From a virus: 33,499 nucleotides of DNA. Numbering within the stretch: the first letter of the stretch is position 1; each line of letters starts with the position of its first letter. The translations under genes were made by a program, and so were the position numbers. Where the stretch lies: the IMG/VR virus record IMGVR_UViG_3300017734_000036, one strand, 5' to 3'. This document shows positions 24,865 to 32,712 of this stretch, in pieces. The notes beneath the pieces were generated by a model. The model was given only the letters and a program-made list of their open reading frames with translations, was not told where the DNA came from and searched no databases.

Positions 24865-25886
24865 GCAGAGCAAGAGATTTCGCAGACCTCGCGGGTGCGG
24901 CTGATGCCGGTGGCATCACGGGCAGGAACCTTATCATTAATGGTTCAGCATCTATAAATCAACGCGGGGACGTTACTGGGAAAACTGCGTCAACATTTGG
25001 CGGTCCAGATAGATTTGAATTAGGTATTAGCAATATCGGAACATATTCAATATCTCAATCGTCAACGTCTCCTGATGGGTTTGCTAATTCATACAAGGTT
25101 GACTGCACCACCGCCGACGCATCCCCTGCATCTGGCGATTTCCTTGTTATCAGTCATAAAATAGAAGCGCAGAATTTACAGCATCTGCAATACGGCACAT
25201 CTGGAGCAAAAAAGATTACGTTGTCTTTTTATGCCCGTTCAAACAAGACTGGGACATATGCTGTTGAGTTAATTGCAAGCGATGCAAACAAGCACATCTG
25301 CCAAACCTTCACAATCAATTCTGCCGATAGTTGGGAAAAGAAAGAGCTTACTTTTGTAGGTAACACGGCTGATGTCATAAACAATGATAATGGCATCGGG
25401 ATGTATGTAAATTGGTGGCTTGGGGTTGGCTCTGGCTTCACCAGCGGAACTCTGGCTACATCTTGGGCAACACGCACAACAGCAAACATTGCAGTCGGTC
25501 AAACTGTAAATATTGCAGACAACACTGCCAACGAGTTTTTGCTAACCGGCGTGCAGCTTGAGGTCGGCTCTGCCACGCCGTTTGAGCATCGGTCGTTTGG
25601 CGATGAGTTGGCTAGGTGTCAGAGGTATTTTCAAGACTACACAACAGACAGATTTAGGCATCAACAGGGATATGCGGAAAATTCTACTGCATATGCTAGA
25701 GATATTCTCATTCCACAAATGAGAGCCAACCCTACCATTACGGTATCAGATACAAACTTGAACGGATTTGACCCCGTATCAGCAGCAGCAAATGCTCCTA
25801 ATAAAGTAGATTTTACTGCTACTTGTACCGTCACCGGAACATCACGCTATTACGATTTCAAATTTACTGCGGCTGCGGAGTTGTAA
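24861..25886 (+). CDS. Second tail fibre-like / receptor-binding protein candidate, 341 aa.
   Basis: The N-terminal RDFADLAG...NLIINGSASINQRG motif resembles fibre-like proteins of marine podoviruses (from memory). Beta-rich C-terminal body. Position follows the main fibre. Confidence 0.45.
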   Translation: MSRARDFADLAGAADAGGITGRNLIINGSASINQRGDVTGKTASTFGGPDRFELGISNIGTYSISQSSTSPDGFANSYKVDCTTADASPASGDFLVISHKIEAQNLQHLQYGTSGAKKITLSFYARSNKTGTYAVELIASDANKHICQTFTINSADSWEKKELTFVGNTADVINNDNGIGMYVNWWLGVGSGFTSGTLATSWATRTTANIAVGQTVNIADNTANEFLLTGVQLEVGSATPFEHRSFGDELARCQRYFQDYTTDRFRHQQGYAENSTAYARDILIPQMRANPTITVSDTNLNGFDPVSAAANAPNKVDFTATCTVTGTSRYYDFKFTAAAEL

Positions 25887-25888
25887 AC

Positions 25889-26077
25889 ATGAATATAACC
25901 AGTGCTAAATATGTAAATATTCCTGAACCAGACGGCTCTGTAATTGCAAATGGAGTTATTAAAGCGACAATCAATGGTGTCGAAATGTTTGTGCCTATTG
26001 ACCCAAATAACTCCGACTACGACGAAATCCAGCGACAGGTCGCAGCCGGTACCTTGACCATTGCGGACGCTGAGTGA
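25889..26077 (+). CDS. Hypothetical protein, 62 aa.
   Basis: Internal ATG of the tracked ORF with a GGAG RBS 8 nt upstream. Starts 2 nt after the preceding stop. Confidence 0.45.
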   Translation: MNITSAKYVNIPEPDGSVIANGVIKATINGVEMFVPIDPNNSDYDEIQRQVAAGTLTIADAE

Positions 26078-26247
26078 TGAGCAAGCCCACCGCCGCATCT
26101 GTACAGGCCCAGATCGACACTCATGAAGCTGTCTGCTCTGAGAGGTGGAAGGAAACTATTCTGCGTATTAAGCGCATCGAACACATCATGATTGGCACTG
26201 CTGGCACAACAATTCTGTTACTGGTGGGAATCATACTGAATGGATGA
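26077..26247 (+). CDS. Small tail-anchored membrane protein, 56 aa. Below the ORF-track cutoff.
   Basis: MSKPTAASVQAQIDTHEAVCSERWKETILRIKRIEHIMIGTAGTTILLLVGIILNG. The ATG overlaps the preceding TGA, and the stop overlaps the next ATG (ATGA). Confidence 0.5.
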   Translation: MSKPTAASVQAQIDTHEAVCSERWKETILRIKRIEHIMIGTAGTTILLLVGIILNG

Positions 26248-26432
26248 TCCATGTGTTCTTGCTGTTTGTGTATGTAGGCGTTGGTGAGGGTAAGCGGCTC
26301 ACTAGCAATGATATGTATTTCCGCAGTGTTGATGACTGCGTGTACTTTGCACAACGGCTGCACAAACAAGGCAACAACATCACTGCTTATTGTTTGCCAA
26401 CAATGGTAAATGAAGATGTAAGGATTTACTGA
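26244..26432 (+). CDS. Small secreted or membrane-anchored 2-Cys protein, 62 aa.
   Basis: N-terminal hydrophobic MIHVFLLFVYVGVG, then ...SVDDCVYFAQRLHKQ...YCLP. The architecture resembles small prophage periplasmic proteins. Confidence 0.5.
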   Translation: MIHVFLLFVYVGVGEGKRLTSNDMYFRSVDDCVYFAQRLHKQGNNITAYCLPTMVNEDVRIY

Positions 26433-26863
26433 TGCTTGCTGAACTTGCTGCAGCTAATGCCGCCTTTGCTGTTATTAAGCAAGTTGTATCCAACGGCAAA
26501 GATATAGCTTCTGCTGGCAATGCAATTGCAGAGTTTGTAGGTGCAAAAGAAAAGCTCCAAGCCAAAGCTGCCAAGAAGGGCAATGGCTCAGATCTCGAAG
26601 AGTTTATGGCTCTTGAGCAGATCAAAGAGCGAGAAGAAGAACTCAAACAAATGATGATTATCTTGGGCAGACCGGGCTTGTGGCACGACTGGCAGCGTTT
26701 CCAAGCAAAGGCTAGGATAGCTAGGCGAGAGGCAGAGATAGCCTCTGCACACAAGCGCAAGAAGATTATCGAAGGCACTATTATTGCTGGGTTTATTCTG
26801 TGTTGTTTGGCGGTGCTTGGTGCTTTGTTTGTGTTGATACTGCACCATCAAGGGAGACTGTGA
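26432..26863 (+). CDS. Coiled-coil protein with a C-terminal TM anchor, 143 aa.
   Basis: Charged helical centre and C-terminal IIAGFILCCLAVLGALFVLIL. Start and stop are both coupled to neighbouring genes. Confidence 0.55.
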   Translation: MLAELAAANAAFAVIKQVVSNGKDIASAGNAIAEFVGAKEKLQAKAAKKGNGSDLEEFMALEQIKEREEELKQMMIILGRPGLWHDWQRFQAKARIARREAEIASAHKRKKIIEGTIIAGFILCCLAVLGALFVLILHHQGRL

Positions 26864-27069
26864 TGGAAGTAACTATGGAACGCTTTCTAGCGTGGAAGAT
26901 ACTTCCGCGCTTTATGATGTTCACTATGACGTTTATGTACATCCGTGTGATCGAATGGTTCATTTCATTGTCACCTGATGCGATGACTTCACAGGCCACA
27001 GCCCTAACAGCGACCGTCACTGGTGCAATGACAGGCGCTTTTGCTGTGTGGTTAGGATCTGAGAAGTGA
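26863..27069 (+). CDS. Two-TM small membrane protein, 68 aa. Holin candidate.
   Basis: Internal ATG overlapping the preceding TGA. Hydrophobic segments ILPRFMMFTMTFMYIRVIEWFISL and ALTATVTGAMTGAFAVWLG. Confidence 0.4.
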   Translation: MEVTMERFLAWKILPRFMMFTMTFMYIRVIEWFISLSPDAMTSQATALTATVTGAMTGAFAVWLGSEK

Positions 27070-27245
27070 ATACGGTCTGGGTCGTCATACTGGTGACTGC
27101 TGTGTCGCCATTTAACTACACCGTTTCTCCATTGACTGACGCTGATACGCTTGAACAGTGCCACTCCAAGGCCGTAAAGATTGAGCATGATATCGTGCGT
27201 GCAGACAACCAAGAGATGATGTGCATAAGGGTGGATTACGAATGA
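27066..27245 (+). CDS. Small signal-anchored 2-Cys protein, 59 aa, GTG start.
   Basis: The GTG overlaps the preceding stop (GTGA). MNTVWVVILVTAVSPF...DTLEQCHSKAVKIEHD...MMCIRV. Same architecture as the 26244..26432 product. The stop overlaps the next ATG. Confidence 0.4.
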   Translation: MNTVWVVILVTAVSPFNYTVSPLTDADTLEQCHSKAVKIEHDIVRADNQEMMCIRVDYE

Positions 27246-27619
27246 TACAGGCATTGATACCCGCCATTGCTGACCTTGCCGGCGGCTGGCTCAGGGGTAA
27301 GGCAGACGAAAAGGCAGCGCAGTCTAGAGTCAAGGTTGCCAAGGCAGAGGCTGAAGCAGAGGTAATGAAGGTCGCCGCCACGCATGAAGCTGGCTGGGAA
27401 AAGATCATGGCTGAAGCCAGCAAGGATAGCTGGAAAGACGAGGCCTGGACGATTTTGTTTATAGCTATCATAGGCATGTGCTTCATACCGCCCTTGCAGC
27501 CCTATGTTGAACGTGGGTTTGCCGCGTTAGAAACTACCCCTGATTGGTTTCAATGGGCTATGTATGCTAGTATTGCCGCATCATTCGGTCTGAGGGGTTT
27601 GAAAGGGCTGAAAAAGTGA
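27242..27619 (+). CDS. Membrane protein, 125 aa. Holin candidate: N-terminal charged helix followed by TM segments.
   Basis: Internal ATG in an ATGA overlap. KAEAEAEVMKVAATHEAGWEKIMAEASKDSWKDEAWTILFIAIIGMCFIPP, then a second hydrophobic segment WFQWAMYASIAASFGL. Reminiscent of 3-TM gene-transfer-type holins. Confidence 0.45.
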   Translation: MIQALIPAIADLAGGWLRGKADEKAAQSRVKVAKAEAEAEVMKVAATHEAGWEKIMAEASKDSWKDEAWTILFIAIIGMCFIPPLQPYVERGFAALETTPDWFQWAMYASIAASFGLRGLKGLKK

Positions 27620-27750
27620 GCTTGTATAGAAACATTCACGCCAAGCGTAAGAGGATTAAAGCTGGCAGTGGTGAGAAAATGCGTAAGGTTGGGCAAAAAG
27701 GTTCGCCAACTAAGAAAAATTTCCAACAAGCTAAAAAGAAAAAGCGATGA
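27616..27750 (+). CDS. Cationic mini-protein 1, 44 aa, GTG start.
   Basis: GTGA overlap with the upstream stop and ATGA overlap with the next gene. MSLYRNIHAKRKRIKAGSGEKMRKVGQKGSPTKKNFQQAKKKKR has 17 of 44 residues K/R. Confidence 0.55.
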   Translation: MSLYRNIHAKRKRIKAGSGEKMRKVGQKGSPTKKNFQQAKKKKR

Positions 27751-27929
27751 AGCGCAAGTTTGCAAAGGTGTCCAAGACAAAGGGCGGCGTGCCAAAGAAG
27801 TATGTGCGCGGTGCCAAGAACCCCAAAAAACGTGAGGCAGAGATTAAGCGCACGCAGCGTCTTTATAGGCAAGGCAAGTTGACGCCAGCTATGATGAACA
27901 GGATTAGCAAGCAGAGGAGCCGAGGATGA
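27747..27929 (+). CDS. Cationic mini-protein 2, 60 aa.
   Basis: ORF track. ATGA overlaps on both sides. Very Lys/Arg-rich. Confidence 0.6.
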   Translation: MKRKFAKVSKTKGGVPKKYVRGAKNPKKREAEIKRTQRLYRQGKLTPAMMNRISKQRSRG

Positions 27930-28189
27930 GCAAAGCCGCCACCGTTGCCAAGTATTCCAAATCGTCTGGCATATCCAAGTCAACACTCGGCAAGGTCTAT
28001 CAGAGAGGTCTAGGTGCCTACTACAGCAGCGGCAGTAGACCCAAGGTTTCCGCGCACCAATGGGCTGCTGGCAGAGTGCGCAGTTTTGCTACCGGCAAGG
28101 GCGGCGCACGCAAGGCTGACGCTGACCTGATCCGTAAGAAGAAAAAGCCTACAGCCAAAAAAGCAGCTAAAAAGAGGAGTAGGGCATGA
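27926..28189 (+). CDS. Cationic protein 3, 87 aa, with a conserved YYSSGSRP...WAAGRVRSF motif.
   Basis: ORF track. The RGLGAYYSSGSRPKVSAHQWAAGRVRSFATGKGG...ADADL motif resembles a family of unknown function seen in phages and giant viruses (from memory). Lys-rich tail. Confidence 0.65.
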   Translation: MSKAATVAKYSKSSGISKSTLGKVYQRGLGAYYSSGSRPKVSAHQWAAGRVRSFATGKGGARKADADLIRKKKKPTAKKAAKKRSRA

Positions 28190-28326
28190 TAGGCAAGCGG
28201 CAAAAAACTAAGATTAAACAGGTGGTTAAGAAGCTACGCGGTGCCTCAAAGGCGCACGCCGGTCAGGCCAAAACTCTTGAGTCCATGATACGCAAGAGTA
28301 ACGGAAAAAAGAAGCGCAAGGCATGA
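28186..28326 (+). CDS. Cationic mini-protein 4, 46 aa.
   Basis: ATGA overlaps on both sides. MIGKRQKTKIKQVVKKLRGASKAHAGQAKTLESMIRKSNGKKKRKA. Confidence 0.5.
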   Translation: MIGKRQKTKIKQVVKKLRGASKAHAGQAKTLESMIRKSNGKKKRKA

Positions 28327-28772
28327 ACAAGGATAAGCTACGTCAGGAACTTGCAGAGGACGAGGGCTGCAAGTACGAAGTGTACCTCGATCATATTGCT
28401 CTACCCACCTTTGGTCTGGGCCACCTGATAGTAGAAGATGATCCAGAACACGGTCAGCCTGTTGGCACACCTGTCTCTGAGGAGCGTGTGCGTCAGGCAT
28501 TTGCTCTTGATGTCGCTGTCACGATTGATGAGTGCAAAGTTTTATACCCAGACTTTGATGACTTACCCGAAGACTGCCAATTAATCATCGCGAATATGAT
28601 GTTTAATATGGGAAGGCCGCGTCTCTCTAAATTTAAGGGCATGAAAGCCGGTGTTGATGCTAAAGATTGGAACAGGGCTGCGGAAGAAATGGTCGACAGC
28701 CGCTGGCATGATCAGGTTCCCAACAGGGCCAAGAGGCTTGTCAAACGCATGAGAGCTTTGTCTGATGGCTAA
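28323..28772 (+). CDS. Endolysin: T4-type lysozyme (GH24), 149 aa.
   Basis: AEDEGCKYEVYLDHIALPTFGLGHLI carries the Glu / Asp / Thr catalytic triad spacing of T4 lysozyme (E11, D20, T26). Confidence 0.9.
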   Translation: MNKDKLRQELAEDEGCKYEVYLDHIALPTFGLGHLIVEDDPEHGQPVGTPVSEERVRQAFALDVAVTIDECKVLYPDFDDLPEDCQLIIANMMFNMGRPRLSKFKGMKAGVDAKDWNRAAEEMVDSRWHDQVPNRAKRLVKRMRALSDG

Positions 28773-29076
28773 GACACCGGCATGGCAGCGCAAGGCTGGC
28801 AAGAACCCGAAGGGTGGCTTGAACGCCAAGGGCAGGGCTTCTGCACGCAAGCAGGGTATGAACCTTAAGGCACCTGTGAAGAAGGGTGACAACCCGCGCA
28901 GGGCTAGTTTCTTAGCGCGTATGGGCGGCATGAGGGGGCCGGAACGAGATGCGAAGGGCAAACCTACCAGGCTCCTGCTTTCTCTCAGGGCATGGGGTGC
29001 AAGCAGCAAGGCTGACGCAAAGAAGAAGGCAGCAGCTATCTCCAAACGCAACAAAGCCAAGAAGGGGAAGAAATAA
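28765..29076 (+). CDS. Cationic protein 5, 103 aa.
   Basis: ORF track. Overlaps the lysozyme stop by 8 nt. WQRKAGKNPKGGLNAKGR...NPRRASFLARMGG... and a Lys-rich tail. Confidence 0.6.
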   Translation: MAKTPAWQRKAGKNPKGGLNAKGRASARKQGMNLKAPVKKGDNPRRASFLARMGGMRGPERDAKGKPTRLLLSLRAWGASSKADAKKKAAAISKRNKAKKGKK

Positions 29077-29198
29077 TGCCGGGAAAAATGAAGAAGGCCG
29101 CGAAGAAGAATGGCAACGGTATGCTGACGGCCAAGCAGAAGACACTGCCGCCAGCACTTAAAAAGAAGATCATATCGTCTAAGAAAAGGAGATCATGA
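29076..29198 (+). CDS. Cationic mini-protein 6, 40 aa.
   Basis: The ATG shares one base with the preceding TAA. MPGKMKKAAKKNGNGMLTAKQKTLPPALKKKIISSKKRRS. The stop overlaps the next ATG. Confidence 0.45.
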   Translation: MPGKMKKAAKKNGNGMLTAKQKTLPPALKKKIISSKKRRS

Positions 29199-29329
29199 TG
29201 CCAATGGGCAAGGGTACTTACGGTTCAACCAGAGGCCGTCCACCAAAGTCTGCCAAGATGAAGAAGCAAGCAGCAACAGCCATTGCGATGAAGAAGAAAA
29301 AGAAAAAACCTAAGACGCGCATGGCTTAA
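29195..29329 (+). CDS. Cationic mini-protein 7, 44 aa. Last gene of the rightward operon.
   Basis: MMPMGKGTYGSTRGRPPKSAKMKKQAATAIAMKKKKKKPKTRMA. RBS AAGGAG at 29186-29191. Ends at the terminator. Confidence 0.5.
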   Translation: MMPMGKGTYGSTRGRPPKSAKMKKQAATAIAMKKKKKKPKTRMA

Positions 29330-29351
29330 AAAAAGGGGGGCATGGCCCCCC
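29328..29351. terminator. Bidirectional intrinsic terminator between the convergent operons.
   Basis: A7 run, then GGGGGGC (29335-29341), loop ATG, then GCCCCCC (29345-29351). On the minus strand the hairpin is followed by T7. On the plus strand it is followed by TAGTTCTTCTCCTT. Confidence 0.75.
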
Positions 29352-29503
29352 TAGTTCTTCTCCTTGTAGCAATTCCAGCAGATATCCTCGCGTGACGCAA
29401 GAGATACCCAGTTGTGCTGAGTGTAATCACAGACCTTCTGACACCTCGCGCAATGAAATGGGCGACTGACCCTCACAGTCTTTTGCTGCTTTCTCTTCTT
29501 CAC
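29351..29503 (-). CDS. Candidate small zinc-ribbon protein, 50 aa, GTG start. Overlaps the end of the upstream gene out of frame.
   Basis: GGAG lies 7 nt upstream of the GTG at 29503. MKKRKQQKTVRVSRPFHCARCQKVCDYTQHNWVSLASREDICWNCYKEKN has CxxC-N22-CxxC. The stop codon abuts the terminator stem. Confidence 0.4.
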   Translation of the reverse strand: MKKRKQQKTVRVSRPFHCARCQKVCDYTQHNWVSLASREDICWNCYKEKN

Positions 29504-29648
29504 GCTTCATCTCCAGTCCGGCATTGAGGCAACGCAGAGCAAGATTTAGCATCTGCGTTGCATTCATTTGTTTGAGGTGGATGGTGCCGTCAATCGACAC
29601 CGCCACACCATCATTTCTTGGAATAATCAGGAAAGTCGGCTCCACCAT
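29427..29648 (-). CDS. Hypothetical protein, 73 aa.
   Basis: Internal Met of the tracked ORF, preceded by the AAAGGATCACAG RBS motif used elsewhere in the genome. Confidence 0.5.
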   Translation of the reverse strand: MVEPTFLIIPRNDGVAVSIDGTIHLKQMNATQMLNLALRCLNAGLEMKREEEKAAKDCEGQSPISLREVSEGL

Positions 29649-29832
29649 CTGTGATCCTTTCGATTTCACGCATCGTGATGTACCAGCGGCCCCCTAAACG
29701 CTTGCCTTTGATAATGCCCCTGTGGAGCATCGTACGCAGCATGTTGACCTGAGACTTGCTATCGGTGCCAAACAGCACCAAAGACGCCTCACGAGGGCTT
29801 AAAAGCGCCTTAGAATGGGATGTCTGGGTCAT
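29611..29832 (-). CDS. Excisionase/MerR-type (HTH_17-like) DNA-binding protein, 73 aa.
   Basis: ALLSPREASLVLFG....VNMLRTMLHRGIIKGKRLGGRWYITMREIERI matches the helix-turn-helix plus G-RW-I wing pattern. Start chosen at the internal Met (29832) to limit overlap with the upstream gene. Confidence 0.6.
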   Translation of the reverse strand: MTQTSHSKALLSPREASLVLFGTDSKSQVNMLRTMLHRGIIKGKRLGGRWYITMREIERITDGGADFPDYSKK

Positions 29833-30157
29833 CGTCCTCTGCCTTTGGCTGTGGTGCCGAATACTTGTGGCTGATCGCGTTGCCAATAGGCTTCATAGCT
29901 GGCTGCGATATGCCGTCAGAGATACTGTCCTCACCTTGGTATTCAGTAACTCTTGAGATGCGAATAGAGATAGTGCCGTCCTCGTTGGGGAACAGGCTGA
30001 CTTGGTGGCGCTGGCCTTCTCGCAAGGTGATATCCGCAGGAGTTTTTTGCTCCGCTGAATAAGGTTGCCAGTTGCCATTGCTATACTGTGCCTTGCCCTT
30101 TCCCTCCGCGTTAGGGAACAGCTTGATGTAGGTGATTGTGTCATAGCGTTTAGCCAT
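29810..30157 (-). CDS. Small SSB-like protein, 115 aa, with a bacterial SSB C-terminal tip.
   Basis: Ends in ...PKAEDDDPDIPF (E. coli SSB ends in DDDIPF). Lies next to an annealing-protein candidate. The N-terminal approximately 85 aa are beta-rich but do not match canonical SSB. Confidence 0.6.
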   Translation of the reverse strand: MAKRYDTITYIKLFPNAEGKGKAQYSNGNWQPYSAEQKTPADITLREGQRHQVSLFPNEDGTISIRISRVTEYQGEDSISDGISQPAMKPIGNAISHKYSAPQPKAEDDDPDIPF

Positions 30158-30770
30158 CAGATTTTAGCTCCTTCATGCGTGCTTGGCATTTTGCTTTGAT
30201 GTCTTGGAAGATCTCAGGGAACTCTTTGTTCGCAATGTCCATCCACTTCTTTGTGAACCCTGCGTTCATCCATTCTGTGATCTGCTTCATGTCAAACTGC
30301 GGCAGATAGTCAGTCGCTTGCTGCTGCAATTCCAACAGGTTAGGCGACGGCTCCTTTGCCGGAGGTAGGCTAGCGATAGCTTCTTCCTTTCTCCCCACGC
30401 CATCCATCTCGTTTGCTGACGCATACTCGCCGCCAGCTAGGCCCAACGATGCCAAGGCACGGCCAACAGCAGACGTTTCACAGTTTTCCAAGGCGCTTGT
30501 CTTGTTGACGTTGCCCTGCCCCCTGATCTCCTCTGCCATGCCGGAACCAATTACAGCGCCGTCCATGTTGGTGATATTGGCTTTGACCACGACACGCTGG
30601 CCGTCATCTACCAAGATGTGTGTGTCCACCCCAAAGTCGGTGCCGTGCATCTTGCGGAATGCTTCCATTCGATGCACCACCTGGGTGTACTTCTTGCCGC
30701 CGCGCTGGGTTACGCCATGACTAGCGTTCAACTCAGCGACAAGAGCCATAGTTTCTTTCAGGTCAGTCAC
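30150..30770 (-). CDS. Single-strand annealing protein candidate (Rad52/Sak-like), 206 aa.
   Basis: KKYTQVVHRMEAFRKMHG...VVVKANITN.DGAVIGSGMAEE.....NKTSALENCETSAVGRALASLG resembles the annealing-protein core ending in E..A.GRAL..LG (from memory). Synteny with the SSB-like gene. Confidence 0.45.
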   Translation of the reverse strand: MTDLKETMALVAELNASHGVTQRGGKKYTQVVHRMEAFRKMHGTDFGVDTHILVDDGQRVVVKANITNMDGAVIGSGMAEEIRGQGNVNKTSALENCETSAVGRALASLGLAGGEYASANEMDGVGRKEEAIASLPPAKEPSPNLLELQQQATDYLPQFDMKQITEWMNAGFTKKWMDIANKEFPEIFQDIKAKCQARMKELKSDG

Positions 30771-30975
30771 TCATGCCTCCTTGGGAAACTCCTAGATTAT
30801 CAGAGATTAGATGGACAAACAGTGCCAAACTCTTCTCCATTTCAGCGACCCTGTTGTTGCTTTCATAGACAGCCTTGTGCAGTTCATCCACGCGCACATA
30901 AAGCTCGTTGATGCTGTCTTGCATGTCCTCGCGGGTCACATACGGTGTGCCGATATCAACAGGTTCACTGTGCAT
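30763..30975 (-). CDS. Hypothetical coiled-coil protein, 70 aa.
   Basis: Internal Met with an AAGGAG RBS 8 nt upstream. INELYVRVDELHKAVYESNNRVAEMEKSL. Confidence 0.5.
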   Translation of the reverse strand: MHSEPVDIGTPYVTREDMQDSINELYVRVDELHKAVYESNNRVAEMEKSLALFVHLISDNLGVSQGGMSD

Positions 30976-31276
30976 GATAAAACTCCTTGTGCCACATGAC
31001 CATTTGGCTGCGGCCTGACGCACCCTTTCTCTTGGTGCTATCTGTAAAAATGATGCGCTTTTCTTTTAGCTGCTTGTATCTAGCAGTCACGGTGCTATAA
31101 CCGTGCAGCGGCAGGGCTTTCAGCACATCGTCTGAAATGCACCCTGCTGCACCAAACTCCCAGATTGCATCGGCTACTACGCTTTCCATCGCTGTCGCAT
31201 CGATGCTCTCTGCGGCGTCGTGGCTGGTGGCAGGGTCATCCCTGCGCACCAGTTTGAAGGCTGGGGTTGTATTCAT
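30965..31276 (-). CDS. Winged-helix (MarR-like) DNA-binding protein, 103 aa.
   Basis: Internal Met in an ATGA overlap with the upstream stop. DDPATSHDAAESID....ESVVADAIWEFGAAGCISDDVLKALP...YSTVTARYKQLKEKRIIFTD..RKGASGRSQMVW is a common phage wHTH pattern. Confidence 0.55.
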   Translation of the reverse strand: MNTTPAFKLVRRDDPATSHDAAESIDATAMESVVADAIWEFGAAGCISDDVLKALPLHGYSTVTARYKQLKEKRIIFTDSTKRKGASGRSQMVMWHKEFYHAQ

Positions 31277-31512
31277 GTCACGTTCCACTTCTTGTTTGTT
31301 TTCTTGAACGGCGTTTGCATATGCAAAACATTCTTGCCGTACCAAATCCGCAGGTATGGCCCTTTGGAAAAGCCATAGATTTTGAAGCTGGCGGGTCGCT
31401 TGTACTTTTTCCAAATCAGGACGCGATAACCAAGCAAACGCCACTCGCCAAAACCCAACTCCTTCCAAGGCCGAGGCCAGTCTGTCGGGATGTCGAGCTT
31501 TCCTTTCTTCAT
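31273..31512 (-). CDS. Trp/Lys-rich hypothetical protein, 79 aa.
   Basis: ORF track. Coupled start and stop with neighbouring genes. Confidence 0.5.
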   Translation of the reverse strand: MKKGKLDIPTDWPRPWKELGFGEWRLLGYRVLIWKKYKRPASFKIYGFSKGPYLRIWYGKNVLHMQTPFKKTNKKWNVT

Positions 31513-31736
31513 TCTTTGGCTCCATACTTTTTGCCGCGAATGTCACGCAATCTTGCGAACAGCAACAATTCATTCGCACATATCTCCATGTGGCGCGTTG
31601 TGTTCGCACTCATGTCGTCGTGCAAATCACCGACACTAATACAAAGGTTGAAGTTCAAGCTGTCCAACAGCGTTTGAAGCTCTTCCTCAGAAAACGTGAT
31701 GCTTACTTTCGCCTTAGGGCGTCCTGTCTTAGCCAT
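31509..31736 (-). CDS. Hypothetical protein, 75 aa.
   Basis: Internal Met (MAKTGRPKAKV...) overlapping the upstream TAA by 1 nt. Confidence 0.45.
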   Translation of the reverse strand: MAKTGRPKAKVSITFSEEELQTLLDSLNFNLCISVGDLHDDMSANTTRHMEICANELLLFARLRDIRGKKYGAKE

Positions 31737-32629
31737 TAAAACCTCCATAGTTGATTGGCTACGTCTACGATACTTGGGCCATGACGCCTTGCGATCTCGT
31801 TAAAGTCTGGCTGCACGAGGCCAGCCAGGTTGCGCCATGATCCGTGTGCGGCTTTCAGCAGGTTTTGACTGATCTGCCATGACCGCACTGCTTCAGCGTA
31901 TGCCTTCTCCAAAGCCTCTGGCTTGAGCAAGTCACAGTTGTCGGCGTCGGCTATGTAGTAACCTGACGCACTGACATACAGCAGTGACGGTGGCTCACCA
32001 GTTGCTTTGTTGTAGACAGCTTGCTGAATTTGTTGCTGCGCTGTGGGCGTGATGCCTTCCACCTTGGGTACGCGCCACGAGCGGGTGCCGTCCTTCTTAG
32101 GTGGGTTGCGCAGGGGCGGCTTGGCTTTCAGATCACACTGGATGCCACCGCCGGAATAGTCTTGGTAAAGCATGATAGGCACATCAAGGCGCGGCTCTTC
32201 TAGCCAGCGTTGATACTCGCCTTCTATCATGTTGGCGGTCTTGAACCGCTCACGCACGCCTTCAACAGCGTGCAGTATCATGTCAGGGATATAGTCTTTG
32301 AACGCCTCGAACTCCTCGGCGTCCTTGCCGCCATCCCACTTGCGCGGCTGATAGTTGTTGTACCGCTCCATTGTCTGAGCGATGGCCTTAGCCTGATCCA
32401 TGCCATCTTGCTGACCGACCATCGGCTGATACTTGTCCAGCCCTAGAATAAGGTTGGCACCATCCTGCACCACGATCCCGCACATGGGACGCGCTGCCAT
32501 TGGCAGCTTCACTCCAAGGTGGCGGCAGTAGAGCTTGAGAACAAACTCCCATTTGTCCTGTGTGGCACCAGATGCACTGTCGTGCTTTGCGCCGAACTCT
32601 TGCCGGTAGGCTGGTGTTTCGTGAGGCAT
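31736..32629 (-). CDS. Hypothetical protein, 297 aa. Possible RecB/lambda-exo-like PD-(D/E)xK nuclease.
   Basis: Start at the internal Met with an AAGGAAG RBS. IMLYQDYSGGGIQCDLKAK (D...DxK) is followed by QQIQQAVY (QxxxY-like). First gene of the operon that carries the annealing-protein and SSB-like genes. Weak, motif-only call. Confidence 0.5.
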   Translation of the reverse strand: MPHETPAYRQEFGAKHDSASGATQDKWEFVLKLYCRHLGVKLPMAARPMCGIVVQDGANLILGLDKYQPMVGQQDGMDQAKAIAQTMERYNNYQPRKWDGGKDAEEFEAFKDYIPDMILHAVEGVRERFKTANMIEGEYQRWLEEPRLDVPIMLYQDYSGGGIQCDLKAKPPLRNPPKKDGTRSWRVPKVEGITPTAQQQIQQAVYNKATGEPPSLLYVSASGYYIADADNCDLLKPEALEKAYAEAVRSWQISQNLLKAAHGSWRNLAGLVQPDFNEIARRHGPSIVDVANQLWRF

Positions 32630-32669
32630 TGTGTGCTTCCTTGTGCTTTTCTTTGTGTTACTATCCCCT

Positions 32670-32712
32670 CTATTGCATACCGGTTGACCCGGTGTCAACA
32701 GTGTAGTAGAAA
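32670..32712. promoter_or_regulatory. Divergent, overlapping promoter pair whose two -35 hexamers form the palindrome GTTGAC-N5-GTCAAC.
   Basis: Plus strand: TTGACC (32684-32689), N17, TAGAAA (32707-32712), ATG at 32718. Minus strand: TTGACA (32693-32698), N17, CAATAG (32670-32675). The 9-mer TGTCAACAG is shared with the other leftward promoter at 2738-2746. Confidence 0.4.

What the first reader, a model, noticed from the sequence alone, without database searches (positions are those of the whole stretch)
27616..29329. Array of seven translationally coupled, extremely cationic mini-proteins bracketing the endolysin
- From the holin-like gene to the operon terminator, every junction but one is a 1-4 nt start/stop overlap (GTGA, ATGA, TAATG); cationic protein 5 overlaps the lysozyme stop by 8 nt.
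- The chain encodes proteins of 44, 60, 87 and 46 aa, then the GH24 lysozyme, then proteins of 103, 40 and 44 aa.
- All seven non-lysozyme products are Lys/Arg-rich, for example 17 of 44 residues in the first. None has a TM segment.
- Four of them fall below the 60-aa ORF-track cutoff and would be missed by standard callers.
- Several carry distinctive motifs (NIHAKRKRIKAGSGEKMRK; YYSSGSRP...WAAGRVRSF; KLRGASKAHAGQAK; GTYGSTRGRPPK) that I believe recur in unannotated small proteins of marine phages and giant viruses.
- No i-, o- or u-spanin is recognisable in this genome.
- A cationic peptide that replaces the spanin has been described for coliphage phiKT (gp28). These proteins could be outer-membrane disruptors acting with the lysozyme.
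- Alternatively they could be protamine-like DNA-condensing proteins, or nucleic-acid or ribosome binders.
- A multi-member cassette like this is not a described lysis architecture.
Basis: partly seen in the sequence, partly recalled or inferred. Interest (0 to 1): 0.68.

Follow-up and report, generated by a model that had tools for sequence, protein, structure and literature searches.

The report
Polycationic mini-protein cassette in marine phage
Seven real, very positively charged small proteins flank the lysozyme gene of this ocean phage. They belong to uncharacterised, extremely conserved families found across aquatic phages, and the evidence points to nucleic-acid or capsid-associated proteins rather than a new cell-bursting device.

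Summary
Seven ORFs at 27616-29329 (44, 60, 87, 46, 103, 40 and 44 aa; net charge +14 to +28) flank a GH24 lysozyme with 1-8 nt overlaps. All seven show coding-type substitution patterns and have homologues elsewhere.

The window is a near-complete HTVC010P-type marine podovirus. The seven proteins are modules of a wider repertoire that includes DUF6321, DUF5824, an 'NIHAKRKRI' module and a GRP/AT-hook-like module. These modules occur in variable arrays, and fused to one another, in aquatic phages of SAR11, cyanobacteria, Roseobacter, Methylophilales and Limnohabitans.

Away from the window's own lineage they mostly sit beside terminase, portal, scaffold or capsid genes, not lysis genes. A DUF6321-bearing protein of cyanophage S-SM1 was detected in purified virions.

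The proteins lack the hydrophobicity and amphipathicity of the phiKT disruptin. The two Pfam-classified members (P4, P7) are predicted to be folded helical domains with no solved relative.

Best reading (confidence about 0.4): late-made, polycationic, nucleic-acid-binding mini-proteins, probably loaded into the capsid. A role as spanin substitute is weakly supported (about 0.13). I found no paper on them.

The parts
27221..27619 (+). Holin-like membrane protein (context; first gene of the coupled chain).
   Evidence: phrog_2524 at 5e-28; weak GTA_holin_3TM match at 0.012. One strong hydrophobic segment. The homologue in HTVC034P, gp29, directly follows the M15 peptidase.
27616..27750 (+). P2: 44 aa, net +16, the 'NIHAKRKRIKAGSGEKMRK' module.
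   Evidence: phrog_16028 at 3e-19. 1328 clusters at 50% identity. Found in 84 aquatic phage records. Fused to P3, to DUF5824 and to DUF6321 in other proteins. The GTG start is supported by homologues that begin MSLYRNI.
27747..27929 (+). P3: 60 aa, net +20.
   Evidence: phrog_38321 at 1e-5. Homologues in L032, L042 and L076. Fused to P2 in P0243 and to P4 in P0197.
27926..28189 (+). P4: 87 aa, net +22; DUF5824 domain followed by a Lys-rich tail.
   Evidence: PF19141 at 8.8e-13, 49 bits against a cut-off of 25. 809 homologues. AF2 model is helical, pLDDT 77. No relative in PDB.
28186..28326 (+). P5: 46 aa, net +16.
   Evidence: No family match. Homologues in L076, L020 and L014. Weakest codon-position signal of the seven. 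The L020 and L014 homologues are mildly amphipathic, z about +2.
28323..28772 (+). GH24 (T4-type) lysozyme, 149 aa, acidic, no signal or SAR segment.
   Evidence: PF00959 at 32.1 bits against a cut-off of 22.3. The E14-x8-D23-x5-T29 motif is read directly from the translation.
28765..29076 (+). P7: 103 aa, net +28; DUF6321 domain followed by a Lys-rich helix.
   Evidence: PF19846 at 6.8e-22. At least 8000 homologues. AF2 model has four helices, pLDDT 83. No PDB relative. The same domain sits at the C-terminus of the virion-detected S-SM1 protein SSM1_115.
29076..29198 (+). P8: 40 aa, net +14, the 'LTAKQKTLPPALKKKI' module.
   Evidence: Homologues in HTVC168P, Hodr and a jumbo-phage contig. In most phages this module is the C-terminal half of a roughly 45-aa gene whose N-terminal half is the P9 module.
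29195..29329 (+). P9: 44 aa (or 43 from the ATG at 29198), net +15, the 'MPMGKGTYGSxRGRPPK' module with an AT-hook-like GRP core.
   Evidence: The GRP core flanked by K/R is kept in 15 of 16 homologues. Weak match to phrog_29980.
29334..29352 (.). G+C-rich hairpin between the convergent late (+) and early (-) gene blocks; ends the operon.
   Evidence: 8-bp stem with 7 G-C pairs; A run upstream and T run on the other strand.

Best explanation
The seven ORFs encode a set of modular, polycationic, probably nucleic-acid-binding mini-proteins. They are made late, together with the virion proteins.

Their most likely role is inside or at the filling capsid. They would act as internal proteins that bind the phage DNA as counter-ions, and they may travel with it into the next cell.

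Shown:
- The ORFs are genes.
- They belong to families shared, shuffled and fused among aquatic phages.
- Two are folded helical domains.
- They sit in the late operon.
- Homologues of P7 and P2 mostly neighbour packaging and head genes.
- One DUF6321 fusion protein is a virion component.

Inferred:
- DNA binding.
- Packaging of the free-standing mini-proteins.
- The counter-ion role.

On this reading, their position around the lysozyme reflects their place at the end of the late operon in this phage lineage, not a shared function with the enzyme.
For: **Late expression.** The seven ORFs share a strand and an operon with the terminase, portal, capsid and tail genes. No terminator-like site of comparable strength was found in the scanned stretch 25800-29700 before 29334; the stretch upstream of 25800 was not scanned.

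**Gene neighbourhood within 5 genes**
- P7 homologues: 38 of 71 loci beside TerS, TerL, portal, scaffold or capsid genes; 14 beside lysis genes, most of them the window's own lineage.
- P2 homologues: 28 packaging, 3 of which also have lysis genes; 5 lysis only.
- In T7-like pelagiphages, cyanophages and roseophages, arrays of P2-, P8- and DUF6321-like genes lie between the scaffold and capsid genes or between the capsid and tail-tube genes.
- In Hodr the array lies directly upstream of TerL.
- In T4-like cyanophages the DUF6321 gene lies next to gp16 TerS.

**Virion detection.** S-SM1 SSM1_115 belongs to T4-GC119 and has DUF6321 at residues 424-493. It gave 13 peptide counts in purified virions (PMC3037559 Table S8). 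A DUF6321-like 517-aa protein of S-SCSM1 is named 'Virion protein'. That phage's virion proteome was measured by MS (PMC9602691).

**Fusions that link the modules**
- P2+P3, P3+P4, DUF5824+P2 and P2+DUF6321.
- P9 N-terminal half + P8 C-terminal half.
- Attachments to an HD-domain protein and to a cytidylyltransferase-like protein.
- P2 at the C-terminus of acidic proteins of 280-390 aa. One of these is encoded two genes upstream of TerL.

**Composition**
- P9 carries a conserved GRP core flanked by K/R. This is the AT-hook pattern, which I recognise from my own knowledge.
- Charge density is 0.25-0.36 per residue, about twice that of cationic antimicrobial peptides.

**Conservation.** P7 keeps 74-100% identity in contigs with G+C from 0.34 to 0.64, with 3364 synonymous against 1058 non-synonymous codon changes. 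This points to a target that is the same in all hosts.
Against: - No free-standing mini-protein has been shown in a virion or shown to bind DNA.
- The virion evidence concerns a 495-aa fusion protein in a myovirus. The domain need not be what puts that protein in the particle.
- The cytidylyltransferase link is weak. Cyanophage orthologues that were found in virions align only to residues 18-275 and lack DUF5824.
- Neither fold model matches a known DNA-binding fold.
- Arrays lie beside four non-homologous endolysin types in other phages: M15, VanY, phrog_894 and GH24. P4 homologues are more often near lysis genes (29 loci) than packaging genes (12 loci).
- Neutralising even 10% of the phosphate charge of a 33.5 kb genome would take about 50 copies of each of the seven proteins (my arithmetic). 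This is plausible but untested for so small a capsid.
Confidence: 0.4

Rival explanations
1. Lysis accessory. After the holin fires, the polycations reach the periplasm with the lysozyme. There they loosen the outer membrane by displacing the divalent cations that bridge LPS, taking the place of a spanin.
For: - The array brackets the lysozyme and is translationally coupled to it and to the holin-like gene.
- I found no canonical spanin.
- Arrays of the same families lie beside non-homologous endolysins in HTVC034P and HTVC202P (M15), a 215-kb jumbo contig (VanY) and L016/L017 (phrog_894).
- phiKT gp28 shows that a small cationic protein without a signal sequence can do this job (10.1101/515445).
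- Polycations such as protamine and polylysine permeabilise outer membranes (my own knowledge).
- P5 homologues are mildly amphipathic.
Against: - Large hydrophobic residues make up 14-20%, against 34% in gp28. Hydrophobic moment is no higher than in shuffles (z from -0.5 to +0.5), against +2.6 for gp28.
- Most P7 and P2 homologues lie in packaging or head modules with no lysin nearby.
- 32 of the 37 lysin-linked P4 loci share the window's flanking genes, so they represent one lineage's synteny.
- The modules are fused to an HD-domain protein, a cytidylyltransferase-like protein and a virion-detected protein.
- DUF5824 occurs in the head module of a phage whose record names an actinobacterial host.
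- Near-invariant sequence across hosts with very different envelopes is not what membrane-active peptides usually show.
- Seawater-level Mg2+ and Ca2+ would counteract a purely electrostatic action (my own knowledge).
- A conserved cluster of small membrane proteins at 26074-27245 offers other candidates for the missing outer-membrane step.
Confidence: 0.13
2. Nucleic-acid, nucleoid or ribosome binders that act inside the infected cell and are not packaged. Possible roles: compacting or protecting replicated phage DNA before packaging, silencing host DNA, or binding rRNA like small ribosomal proteins.
For: - Charge density and size resemble small ribosomal proteins and histone tails. The comparator sequences are from memory.
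- P9 has an AT-hook-like core.
- Fusions to an HD-domain protein and a cytidylyltransferase-like protein could tether enzymes to nucleic acid.
- Extreme conservation fits a universal target.
Against: - The genes are in the late structural operon, not the early block.
- The neighbours are specifically packaging and head genes, not replication or transcription genes.
- A DUF6321 fusion protein is in virions.
- No sequence or fold match to any ribosomal protein reaches significance. The best are uL2 at E = 0.06 and uS7 with Foldseek E > 1.
Confidence: 0.2
3. Capsid-assembly cofactors. The cationic modules bind the acidic scaffolding protein or the inner capsid surface and help procapsid assembly or scaffold exit, without a lasting role on DNA.
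For: - In T7-like aquatic phages the P2-like gene directly follows the scaffold gene, overlapping it by 1 nt in CRP-118.
- P2 forms the C-terminal tail of acidic proteins of 280-390 aa.
- In phage P22 the basic C-terminus of the scaffolding protein binds the coat protein (my own knowledge).
Against: - The acidic fusion partners match no scaffold family in PHROGs or Pfam.
- Arrays also occur far from scaffold genes.
- Seven different modules are more than such a role seems to need.
Confidence: 0.1
4. Some or all are chance ORFs in an A-rich stretch and are not translated.
For: - Four are shorter than 60 aa.
- P5 and P9 have no strong family match.
Against: - Codon-position-3 excess is seen in every ORF.
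- Homologues exist in unrelated phages, including fused forms.
- Two have Pfam matches above the curated cut-off.
- SD-like motifs lie upstream of P4, P5, P8 and P9.
Confidence: 0.02

Closest known systems
phiKT gp28 'disruptin' (10.1101/515445)
   Same: Small, cationic, no signal sequence or TM segment. Encoded next to a T4-type lysozyme of about 150 aa with the same E14/x23/T29 spacing, in a podovirus with no spanin.
   Different: - gp28 is net +7 with 34% large hydrophobic residues and a clearly amphipathic helix, and it binds membranes hydrophobically.
- The window proteins are net +14 to +28, have 14-20% hydrophobic residues and are not amphipathic.
- gp28 has no homologues beyond one close relative. 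These families have hundreds to thousands, mostly away from lysis genes.
Phage T4 internal proteins IPI, IPII and IPIII (PMC7697877)
   Same: Small basic proteins made late and held with the DNA inside the head. They are the closest functional analogy for the preferred explanation.
   Different: - T4 internal proteins enter the prohead through an N-terminal capsid-targeting sequence of about 10 residues, which a protease removes.
- No such signal or prohead-protease site is evident here.
- There is no sequence similarity.
- Packaging of the window's proteins has not been shown.
Protamine-like viral core proteins (adenovirus VII and Mu, baculovirus P6.9; from my own knowledge)
   Same: Very high positive charge, small size, made late, and condense genome DNA in the particle.
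   Different: - Those proteins are Arg-rich and largely unstructured.
- The window proteins are mostly Lys-rich: P3 has K 13, R 9; P5 has K 13, R 4; P8 has K 12, R 2.
- Two of the window proteins contain strongly conserved folded helical domains.
- No tailed phage is known to use such a set.
Pfam DUF6321 (PF19846), DUF5824 (PF19141) and PHROGs 16028, 28338, 4689, 38321
   Same: P7, P4, P2 and P3 are members by profile score.
   Different: These are catalogue entries with no assigned function. The full-text library I searched holds no paper that mentions DUF6321 or DUF5824.
AT-hook minor-groove DNA-binding motif (HMGA and AHL proteins; from my own knowledge)
   Same: P9 and its homologues keep an (R/K)-G-R-P-(P/A)-K-K core.
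   Different: The resemblance is at motif level only. No profile match was obtained and binding has not been tested.

Membership tests
Disruptin (phiKT gp28 type) | Small (under 80 aa), net cationic, no TM segment or signal sequence. | tested here: met
   Five of the seven are under 80 aa. All are strongly cationic and none has a hydrophobic segment.
Disruptin (phiKT gp28 type) | Predicted amphipathic helix with enough hydrophobic surface for hydrophobic membrane association. | tested here: not met
   Large hydrophobic residues 14-20% against 34%. Maximum hydrophobic moment 0.19-0.52 against 0.68. z against shuffles -0.5 to +0.5 for the three window proteins tested (P3, P5, P8), against +2.6 for gp28.
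Disruptin (phiKT gp28 type) | Encoded in the lysis cassette, and homologues keep that position. | tested here: inconclusive
   Met in the window and its lineage. Not met for most P7 and P2 homologues: 38 packaging against 14 lysis loci, and 28 against 8.
Disruptin (phiKT gp28 type) | Complements a spanin defect; permeabilises the outer membrane. | not testable with these tools
   Needs the lambda Rz/Rz1 amber complementation assay.
Spanins (i/o pair or unimolecular) | N-terminal TM with a periplasmic coiled coil (i-spanin); lipobox lipoprotein (o- or u-spanin). | tested here: not met
   None of the seven has a TM segment or a lipobox. The only lipobox ORF near the lysis genes (26281-26409) is not conserved in L017, L019 or L020.
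Pfam DUF6321 (P7) | Profile score above the gathering cut-off. | tested here: met
   78.3 bits against a cut-off of 28.5; profile positions 1-72 of 72.
Pfam DUF5824 (P4) | Profile score above the gathering cut-off. | tested here: met
   49 bits against a cut-off of 25; profile positions 63-123 of 127. An in-silico P3+P4 fusion aligns to positions 1-123 without gaining score.
T4-type internal head proteins | Present in purified virions. | tested here: inconclusive
   Shown only for a 495-aa DUF6321 fusion protein of S-SM1. There are no data for the free-standing mini-proteins.
T4-type internal head proteins | N-terminal capsid-targeting sequence cleaved by the prohead protease. | not tested
   No comparable motif is obvious in the sequences. 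No test was run.
AT-hook (P9) | Invariant G-R-P core flanked by Arg/Lys. | tested here: met
   15 of 16 homologues keep GRP with K/R on both sides. DNA binding has not been tested.
GH24 / T4 lysozyme (the embedded enzyme) | Pfam PF00959 above the cut-off and the E-x8-D/C-x5-T catalytic motif. | tested here: met
   32.1 bits against 22.3. E14, D23 and T29 are read from the translation.

The most novel reading that the evidence does not exclude
Aquatic tailed phages of many lineages carry a shared, shuffling toolkit of at least eight to ten families of polycationic mini-protein modules. These include DUF6321, DUF5824, the NIHAKRKRI module, an AT-hook-like module and DUF6496. The modules would be packaged with the genome as a histone- or protamine-like counter-ion system. 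That would be a class of virion component not recognised in tailed phages, possibly tied to hosts or waters where the usual counter-ions are limiting.
Probability: 0.3. Interest if true: 0.75.

Novelty: new variant of a known kind. Interest (0 to 1): 0.6.

Why it matters
These families are among the most conserved and widespread 'dark' genes of abundant ocean phages. I counted at least 8000 P7 homologues and 1328 P2 clusters at 50% identity. They occur in pelagiphages, cyanophages, roseophages and a jumbo phage contig. Several are too short for routine gene callers, and some are mis-annotated as ribonucleotide reductase.

If they are capsid-internal DNA-binding proteins, they change how genome packaging and delivery in small marine podoviruses should be modelled. 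They would also explain why enzymes carrying these domains turn up in virions. If they are instead lysis factors, they would be a second, multi-component solution to outer-membrane disruption.

Either way, the module set, its fusions and its two recurrent genomic positions give concrete, cheap experiments on cultured isolates.

Tried and rejected
- **Literature.** A search for DUF6321 and DUF5824 found no paper. Searches on basic small proteins in pelagiphage or cyanopodovirus virions gave nothing relevant. The P-SCSP1u cryo-EM paper mentions neither mass spectrometry nor these genes.\n- **Structure matches.** Foldseek against PDB gave nothing below E = 1 for P7 or P4. Profile searches of P2, P4 and P7 against PDB sequences gave nothing significant. 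An apparent helix-turn-helix look in P4 was therefore not supported and I dropped it.\n- **Rfam.** A scan of 26000-30000 found no RNA family, so the DNA-level conservation of the P2 region is not an RNA element.\n- **Virion-packaged cytidylyltransferase link.** I considered DUF5824 as the packaging tag of the cyanophage cytidylyltransferase/NMNAT proteins found in virions. I rejected it as evidence because only the pelagimyophage HTVC008M orthologue carries the domain; cyanophage orthologues align only to residues 18-275.\n- **'Ribonucleotide reductase' label.** This label on P2-like genes is an annotation artefact, not a fusion.\n- **P-SSP7 and Syn5.** These model phages lack canonical members. 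Syn5 gp59, next to TerL, and PSSP7_048, next to TerS, are only distant look-alikes, so their published proteomes do not help.\n- **Genome collection scan.** It gave 32 hits, all on MAG-binned or draft-assembly contigs of 37 kb or less from aquatic samples. It gave no host assignment and no prophage.\n- **Embedded o-spanin.** The candidate at 26281-26409 was rejected for lack of conservation.\n- **Giant viruses.** Their presence could not be confirmed.


Full report
**What is in the window.** The window is an almost complete genome of a marine podovirus.
- Its major capsid protein is 71% identical to that of Pelagibacter phages HTVC010P and HTVC035P. The DNA matches no isolate, and G+C is about 50%.
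- A long + strand late operon runs from TerL (3397) through the portal, scaffold/protease, capsid, tail-tube, internal-virion and fibre genes.
- It continues into a cluster of small membrane proteins (26074-27245) and a holin-like gene (27221-27619).
- It ends with the stretch in question, closed by a G+C-rich hairpin at 29334-29352. That hairpin faces the convergent minus-strand early genes.

**Check of the observation.** The ORFs, sizes and junctions are exactly as reported.
- The ORFs are P2 (27616-27750, 44 aa), P3 (27747-27929, 60 aa), P4 (27926-28189, 87 aa) and P5 (28186-28326, 46 aa). Then comes the lysozyme (28323-28772, 149 aa), followed by P7 (28765-29076, 103 aa), P8 (29076-29198, 40 aa) and P9 (29195-29329, 44 aa).
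- The overlaps are 4, 4, 4, 4, 4, 8, 1 and 4 nt.
- K+R is 28-39% of residues, net charge is +14 to +28 and pI is 11.4-12.0.
- No other product of the operon exceeds +0.03 net charge per residue, so the clustering is striking.
- Overlapping junctions are not special to the array: 12 of the 24 upstream junctions also overlap.
- Differences from homologues concentrate at the third codon position of the + frame in all seven ORFs. P7 gives 1383/1042/4015 and P5 is weakest at 41/33/59. Every ORF has homologues elsewhere. These are genes, not chance ORFs.
- The lysozyme is a genuine T4-type enzyme: PF00959 above cut-off, E14-x8-D23-x5-T29, and no signal sequence.

**What the seven proteins are.**
- P7 is a DUF6321 protein (78 bits) and P4 a DUF5824 protein (49 bits). 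P2 belongs to phrog_16028 and P3 to phrog_38321. All four families have unknown function.
- P7 has at least 8000 homologues, P4 has 809, and P2 has 1328 clusters at 50% identity.
- AlphaFold models built from the alignments are helical domains: pLDDT 83 for P7 and 77 for P4. Neither has a significant fold or sequence relative in PDB.
- BFVD returns only other DUF6321 proteins, from 56 to 1143 aa long.
- P9 homologues keep an (R/K)GRP(P/A)KK core, which is the AT-hook pattern (the motif identification is from my own knowledge).

**The proteins are shuffled modules.** Fusions tie them together.
- P2+P3 occur in one 95-aa protein (P0243) and P3+P4 in one 104-aa protein (P0197).
- DUF5824 followed by P2 occurs in proteins of 526-930 aa, one of which has an HD domain.
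- Three P2 repeats occur in P0242, and phrog_11180 is a P2+DUF6321 fusion.
- In most other phages the N-terminal motif of P9 and the C-terminal motif of P8 form a single gene of about 45 aa. The window's P8 and P9 look like reciprocal halves of it.
- Around P7 homologues in 80 IMG/VR loci, further cationic mini-protein families recur. A 'GQWSARKAQ' family occurs in 30 loci, a 'GRPYPNLVDNM' family in 10 and DUF6496-like proteins in 7.
- 44 of 71 loci have at least one more cationic mini-protein directly adjacent to P7.
- The full seven-member set occurs only in a near-identical contig. L076 has six of the seven. Other close relatives carry different subsets.

**Distribution.**
- Homologues occur in T7-like podoviruses of Prochlorococcus, Synechococcus, SAR11, Roseobacter and Limnohabitans.
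- They also occur in HTVC010P-type and HTVC023P-like pelagiphages, cobaviruses, T4-like cyanophages and pelagimyophages, Methylophilales myophages, Prochlorococcus siphoviruses and a 215-kb jumbo-phage contig. All are aquatic.
- P7 keeps 74-100% identity in contigs with G+C from 0.34 to 0.64. The jumbo-phage copy is 88% identical.
- In 185,579 species genomes there are only 32 hits. All are on MAG-binned or draft-assembly contigs of 37 kb or less.
- The best IMG/VR loci for P2 and P4 are all on contigs of 64 kb or less, so I could not confirm giant viruses.

**Genomic context elsewhere.**

| Family | Loci with the gene called | Packaging/head genes within 5 genes | Lysis genes within 5 genes | Neither |
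|---|---|---|---|---|
| P7 | 71 | 38 | 14 | 19 |
| P2 | 69 | 28 (3 also lysis) | 8 (3 also packaging) | 36 |
| P4 | 63 | 12 (4 also lysis) | 29 (4 also packaging) | 26 |

- Most of the 14 lysis-linked P7 loci belong to the window's own lineage.
- 32 of the 37 lysin-linked P4 loci carry the window's own flanking genes, so they are one lineage's synteny.
- Typical placements are:
  - scaffold, then minis, then capsid, as in HTVC168P, 7B11-B and CRP-118. In CRP-118 the P2-like gene overlaps the scaffold stop by 1 nt.
  - capsid, then minis, then tail tube, as in P-SCSP1.
  - minis, then TerL, as in Hodr.
  - TerL, then minis, then portal, as in L021.
  - next to gp16 TerS, as in T4-like cyanophages.
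- Against that, arrays lie beside non-homologous endolysins in HTVC034P and HTVC202P (M15), the jumbo contig (VanY) and L016/L017 (phrog_894). In CRP-5 they lie at the end of a late operon downstream of a lytic transglycosylase.

**Experimental anchor.**
- S-SM1 gene SSM1_115 is annotated T4-GC119 and carries DUF6321 at residues 424-493.
- T4-GC119 is listed as detected in purified S-SM1 virions with 13 peptide counts (PMC3037559, Suppl. Table 8).
- A 517-aa S-SCSM1 protein matching the P7 model is named 'Virion protein'. That phage's virion proteome was measured by MS (PMC9602691).
- I first thought DUF5824 might be similarly anchored through the virion-detected cytidylyltransferase/NMNAT proteins. 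Only the HTVC008M orthologue has the domain, and cyanophage orthologues align only to residues 18-275. I do not use that link.

**Test of the lysis reading.**
- phiKT gp28 is 56 aa and net +7, with 34% large hydrophobic residues. Its maximum 18-residue hydrophobic moment is 0.68, z = +2.6 against shuffles. LL-37 gives 0.89 and z = +3.8.
- The window proteins have 14-20% hydrophobic residues and moments of 0.19-0.52. The three tested against shuffles (P3, P5, P8) gave z between -0.5 and +0.5.
- Only the P5 homologues in L014 and L020 reach z of about +2.
- Their charge density is about twice that of cationic antimicrobial peptides.
- DUF5824 also occurs in a 347-aa protein just downstream of the portal gene in a phage whose record names an actinobacterial host.
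- I found no canonical spanin. The one lipobox ORF near the lysis genes (26281-26409) is not conserved, while the ORF that encloses it is.
- The conserved small membrane proteins at 26074-27245 are other candidates for the outer-membrane step.

**Most likely mechanism.** I judge it most likely (about 0.4) that these are late-made, polycationic, nucleic-acid-binding modules associated with the filling capsid.
- They would be internal proteins that offset DNA charge, and they may be delivered with the genome.
- The closest analogies are the T4 internal proteins, at about 1370 internal subunits per head (PMC7697877), and the core proteins of adenovirus and baculovirus.
- Shown: gene reality, family membership, modular fusions, late-operon position, neighbourhood statistics, and one virion-detected fusion protein.
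- Inferred: DNA binding, packaging of the free-standing forms, and the counter-ion role.
- One copy of each protein supplies 131 positive charges in total. About 50 copies of each would offset 10% of the 67,000 phosphate charges of the genome (arithmetic).
- The rivals are intracellular nucleic-acid or ribosome binders (0.2), outer-membrane disruptors (0.13), scaffold or capsid assembly cofactors (0.1) and non-genes (0.02).

**Novelty and verdict.**
- The families are catalogued as DUFs and unknown PHROGs, so the parts are 'known unknowns'.
- The cassette-level picture is new as far as my literature searches reach. It comprises co-occurrence, fusions, two recurrent genomic positions, extreme conservation across hosts and restriction to aquatic phages.
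- I rate it a new variant of a known kind, phage internal or DNA-associated basic proteins. My interest score is 0.6.
Its lead interpretation is weakened and its alternative is favoured.

Noticed in passing
window 26074-27245: Six tightly coupled small ORFs lie upstream of the holin-like gene. They are 57 aa (C-terminal TM), 62 aa (hydrophobic N-terminus, Cys-rich), 143 aa (C-terminal TM, phrog_32327), 69 aa (phrog_10198) and 59 aa (hydrophobic N-terminus, two Cys). The 57- and 62-aa ORFs are conserved in L017, L019 and L020. They are unassigned candidates for the missing outer-membrane lysis step.
   Followed up: partly
window 26281-26409 (+), embedded out of frame in ORF 26244-26432: A 41-42 aa ORF has a plausible lipoprotein signal (…AVLMTA|C), laid out like an embedded o-spanin. 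It is not conserved in relatives, whereas the enclosing ORF is, so it is probably chance.
   Followed up: yes
window 27630-27711 and 28763-28869: There is DNA-level similarity of 74-88% over 58-109 nt to Prochlorococcus, Synechococcus, Pelagibacter and Planktothrix phages, despite unalignable genomes and different G+C. It covers the P2 core and the start of P7. No Rfam family matches there.
   Followed up: partly
L001 2978-3127 (Synechococcus phage 7B11-B); also S-B28: 49-aa P2-like genes are annotated 'ribonucleotide reductase class Ia alpha subunit' in GenBank. This is a transitive annotation error. Some cyanophage cytidylyltransferase genes carry the same wrong label.
   Followed up: yes
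window 29076-29329 compared with L014-L054: P8 and P9 are reciprocal halves of a single gene of about 45 aa (MPMGKGTYGSKRGRPPKKK…LTAKQKTLPSALQKKIMKSKKK) found in most other phages. Each half is paired with a different partner half in the window, which suggests duplication and recombination inside the cassette.
   Followed up: partly
L004 9639-12673 (215-kb jumbo-phage contig, ERZ4229443): At least eight small cationic ORFs surround a VanY-type peptidase. They include an 88%-identical DUF6321 protein, a P8-like protein, a DUF6496 protein and a 'GRPYPNLIDNM' protein. The contig also has a DNA polymerase III alpha subunit and several 2OG-Fe(II) oxygenases.
   Followed up: partly
L102 2425-3468 (Actinomycetia phage DSL-LC01), residues 99-144: A further short conserved module matches the region just upstream of DUF6321 in several PHROGs (727, 28131, 10346, 22379). 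This hints at yet another member of the module set.
   Followed up: no
L101 42932-43060 (Syn5 gp59) and L100 39734-39982 (PSSP7_048): These are distant look-alikes of P2 (MSLYRNINKRKKAG…) and of the P9 N-terminus (KGTYGNG…). They lie directly beside the large and small terminase genes of the two model cyanopodoviruses.
   Followed up: no
window 28323-28772: The lysozyme has the same length class and the same E14/x23/T29 spacing as the corrected phiKT endolysin gp27 described in 10.1101/515445. I did not align the two proteins.
   Followed up: no
window 29351-32698 (- strand): This is a convergent early block. It includes a 206-aa protein whose homologues co-occur on the minus strand in related contigs (labelled SSAP206m in my scripts), plus small Cys-rich and HTH-like ORFs. 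I used it only as a synteny marker.
   Followed up: no
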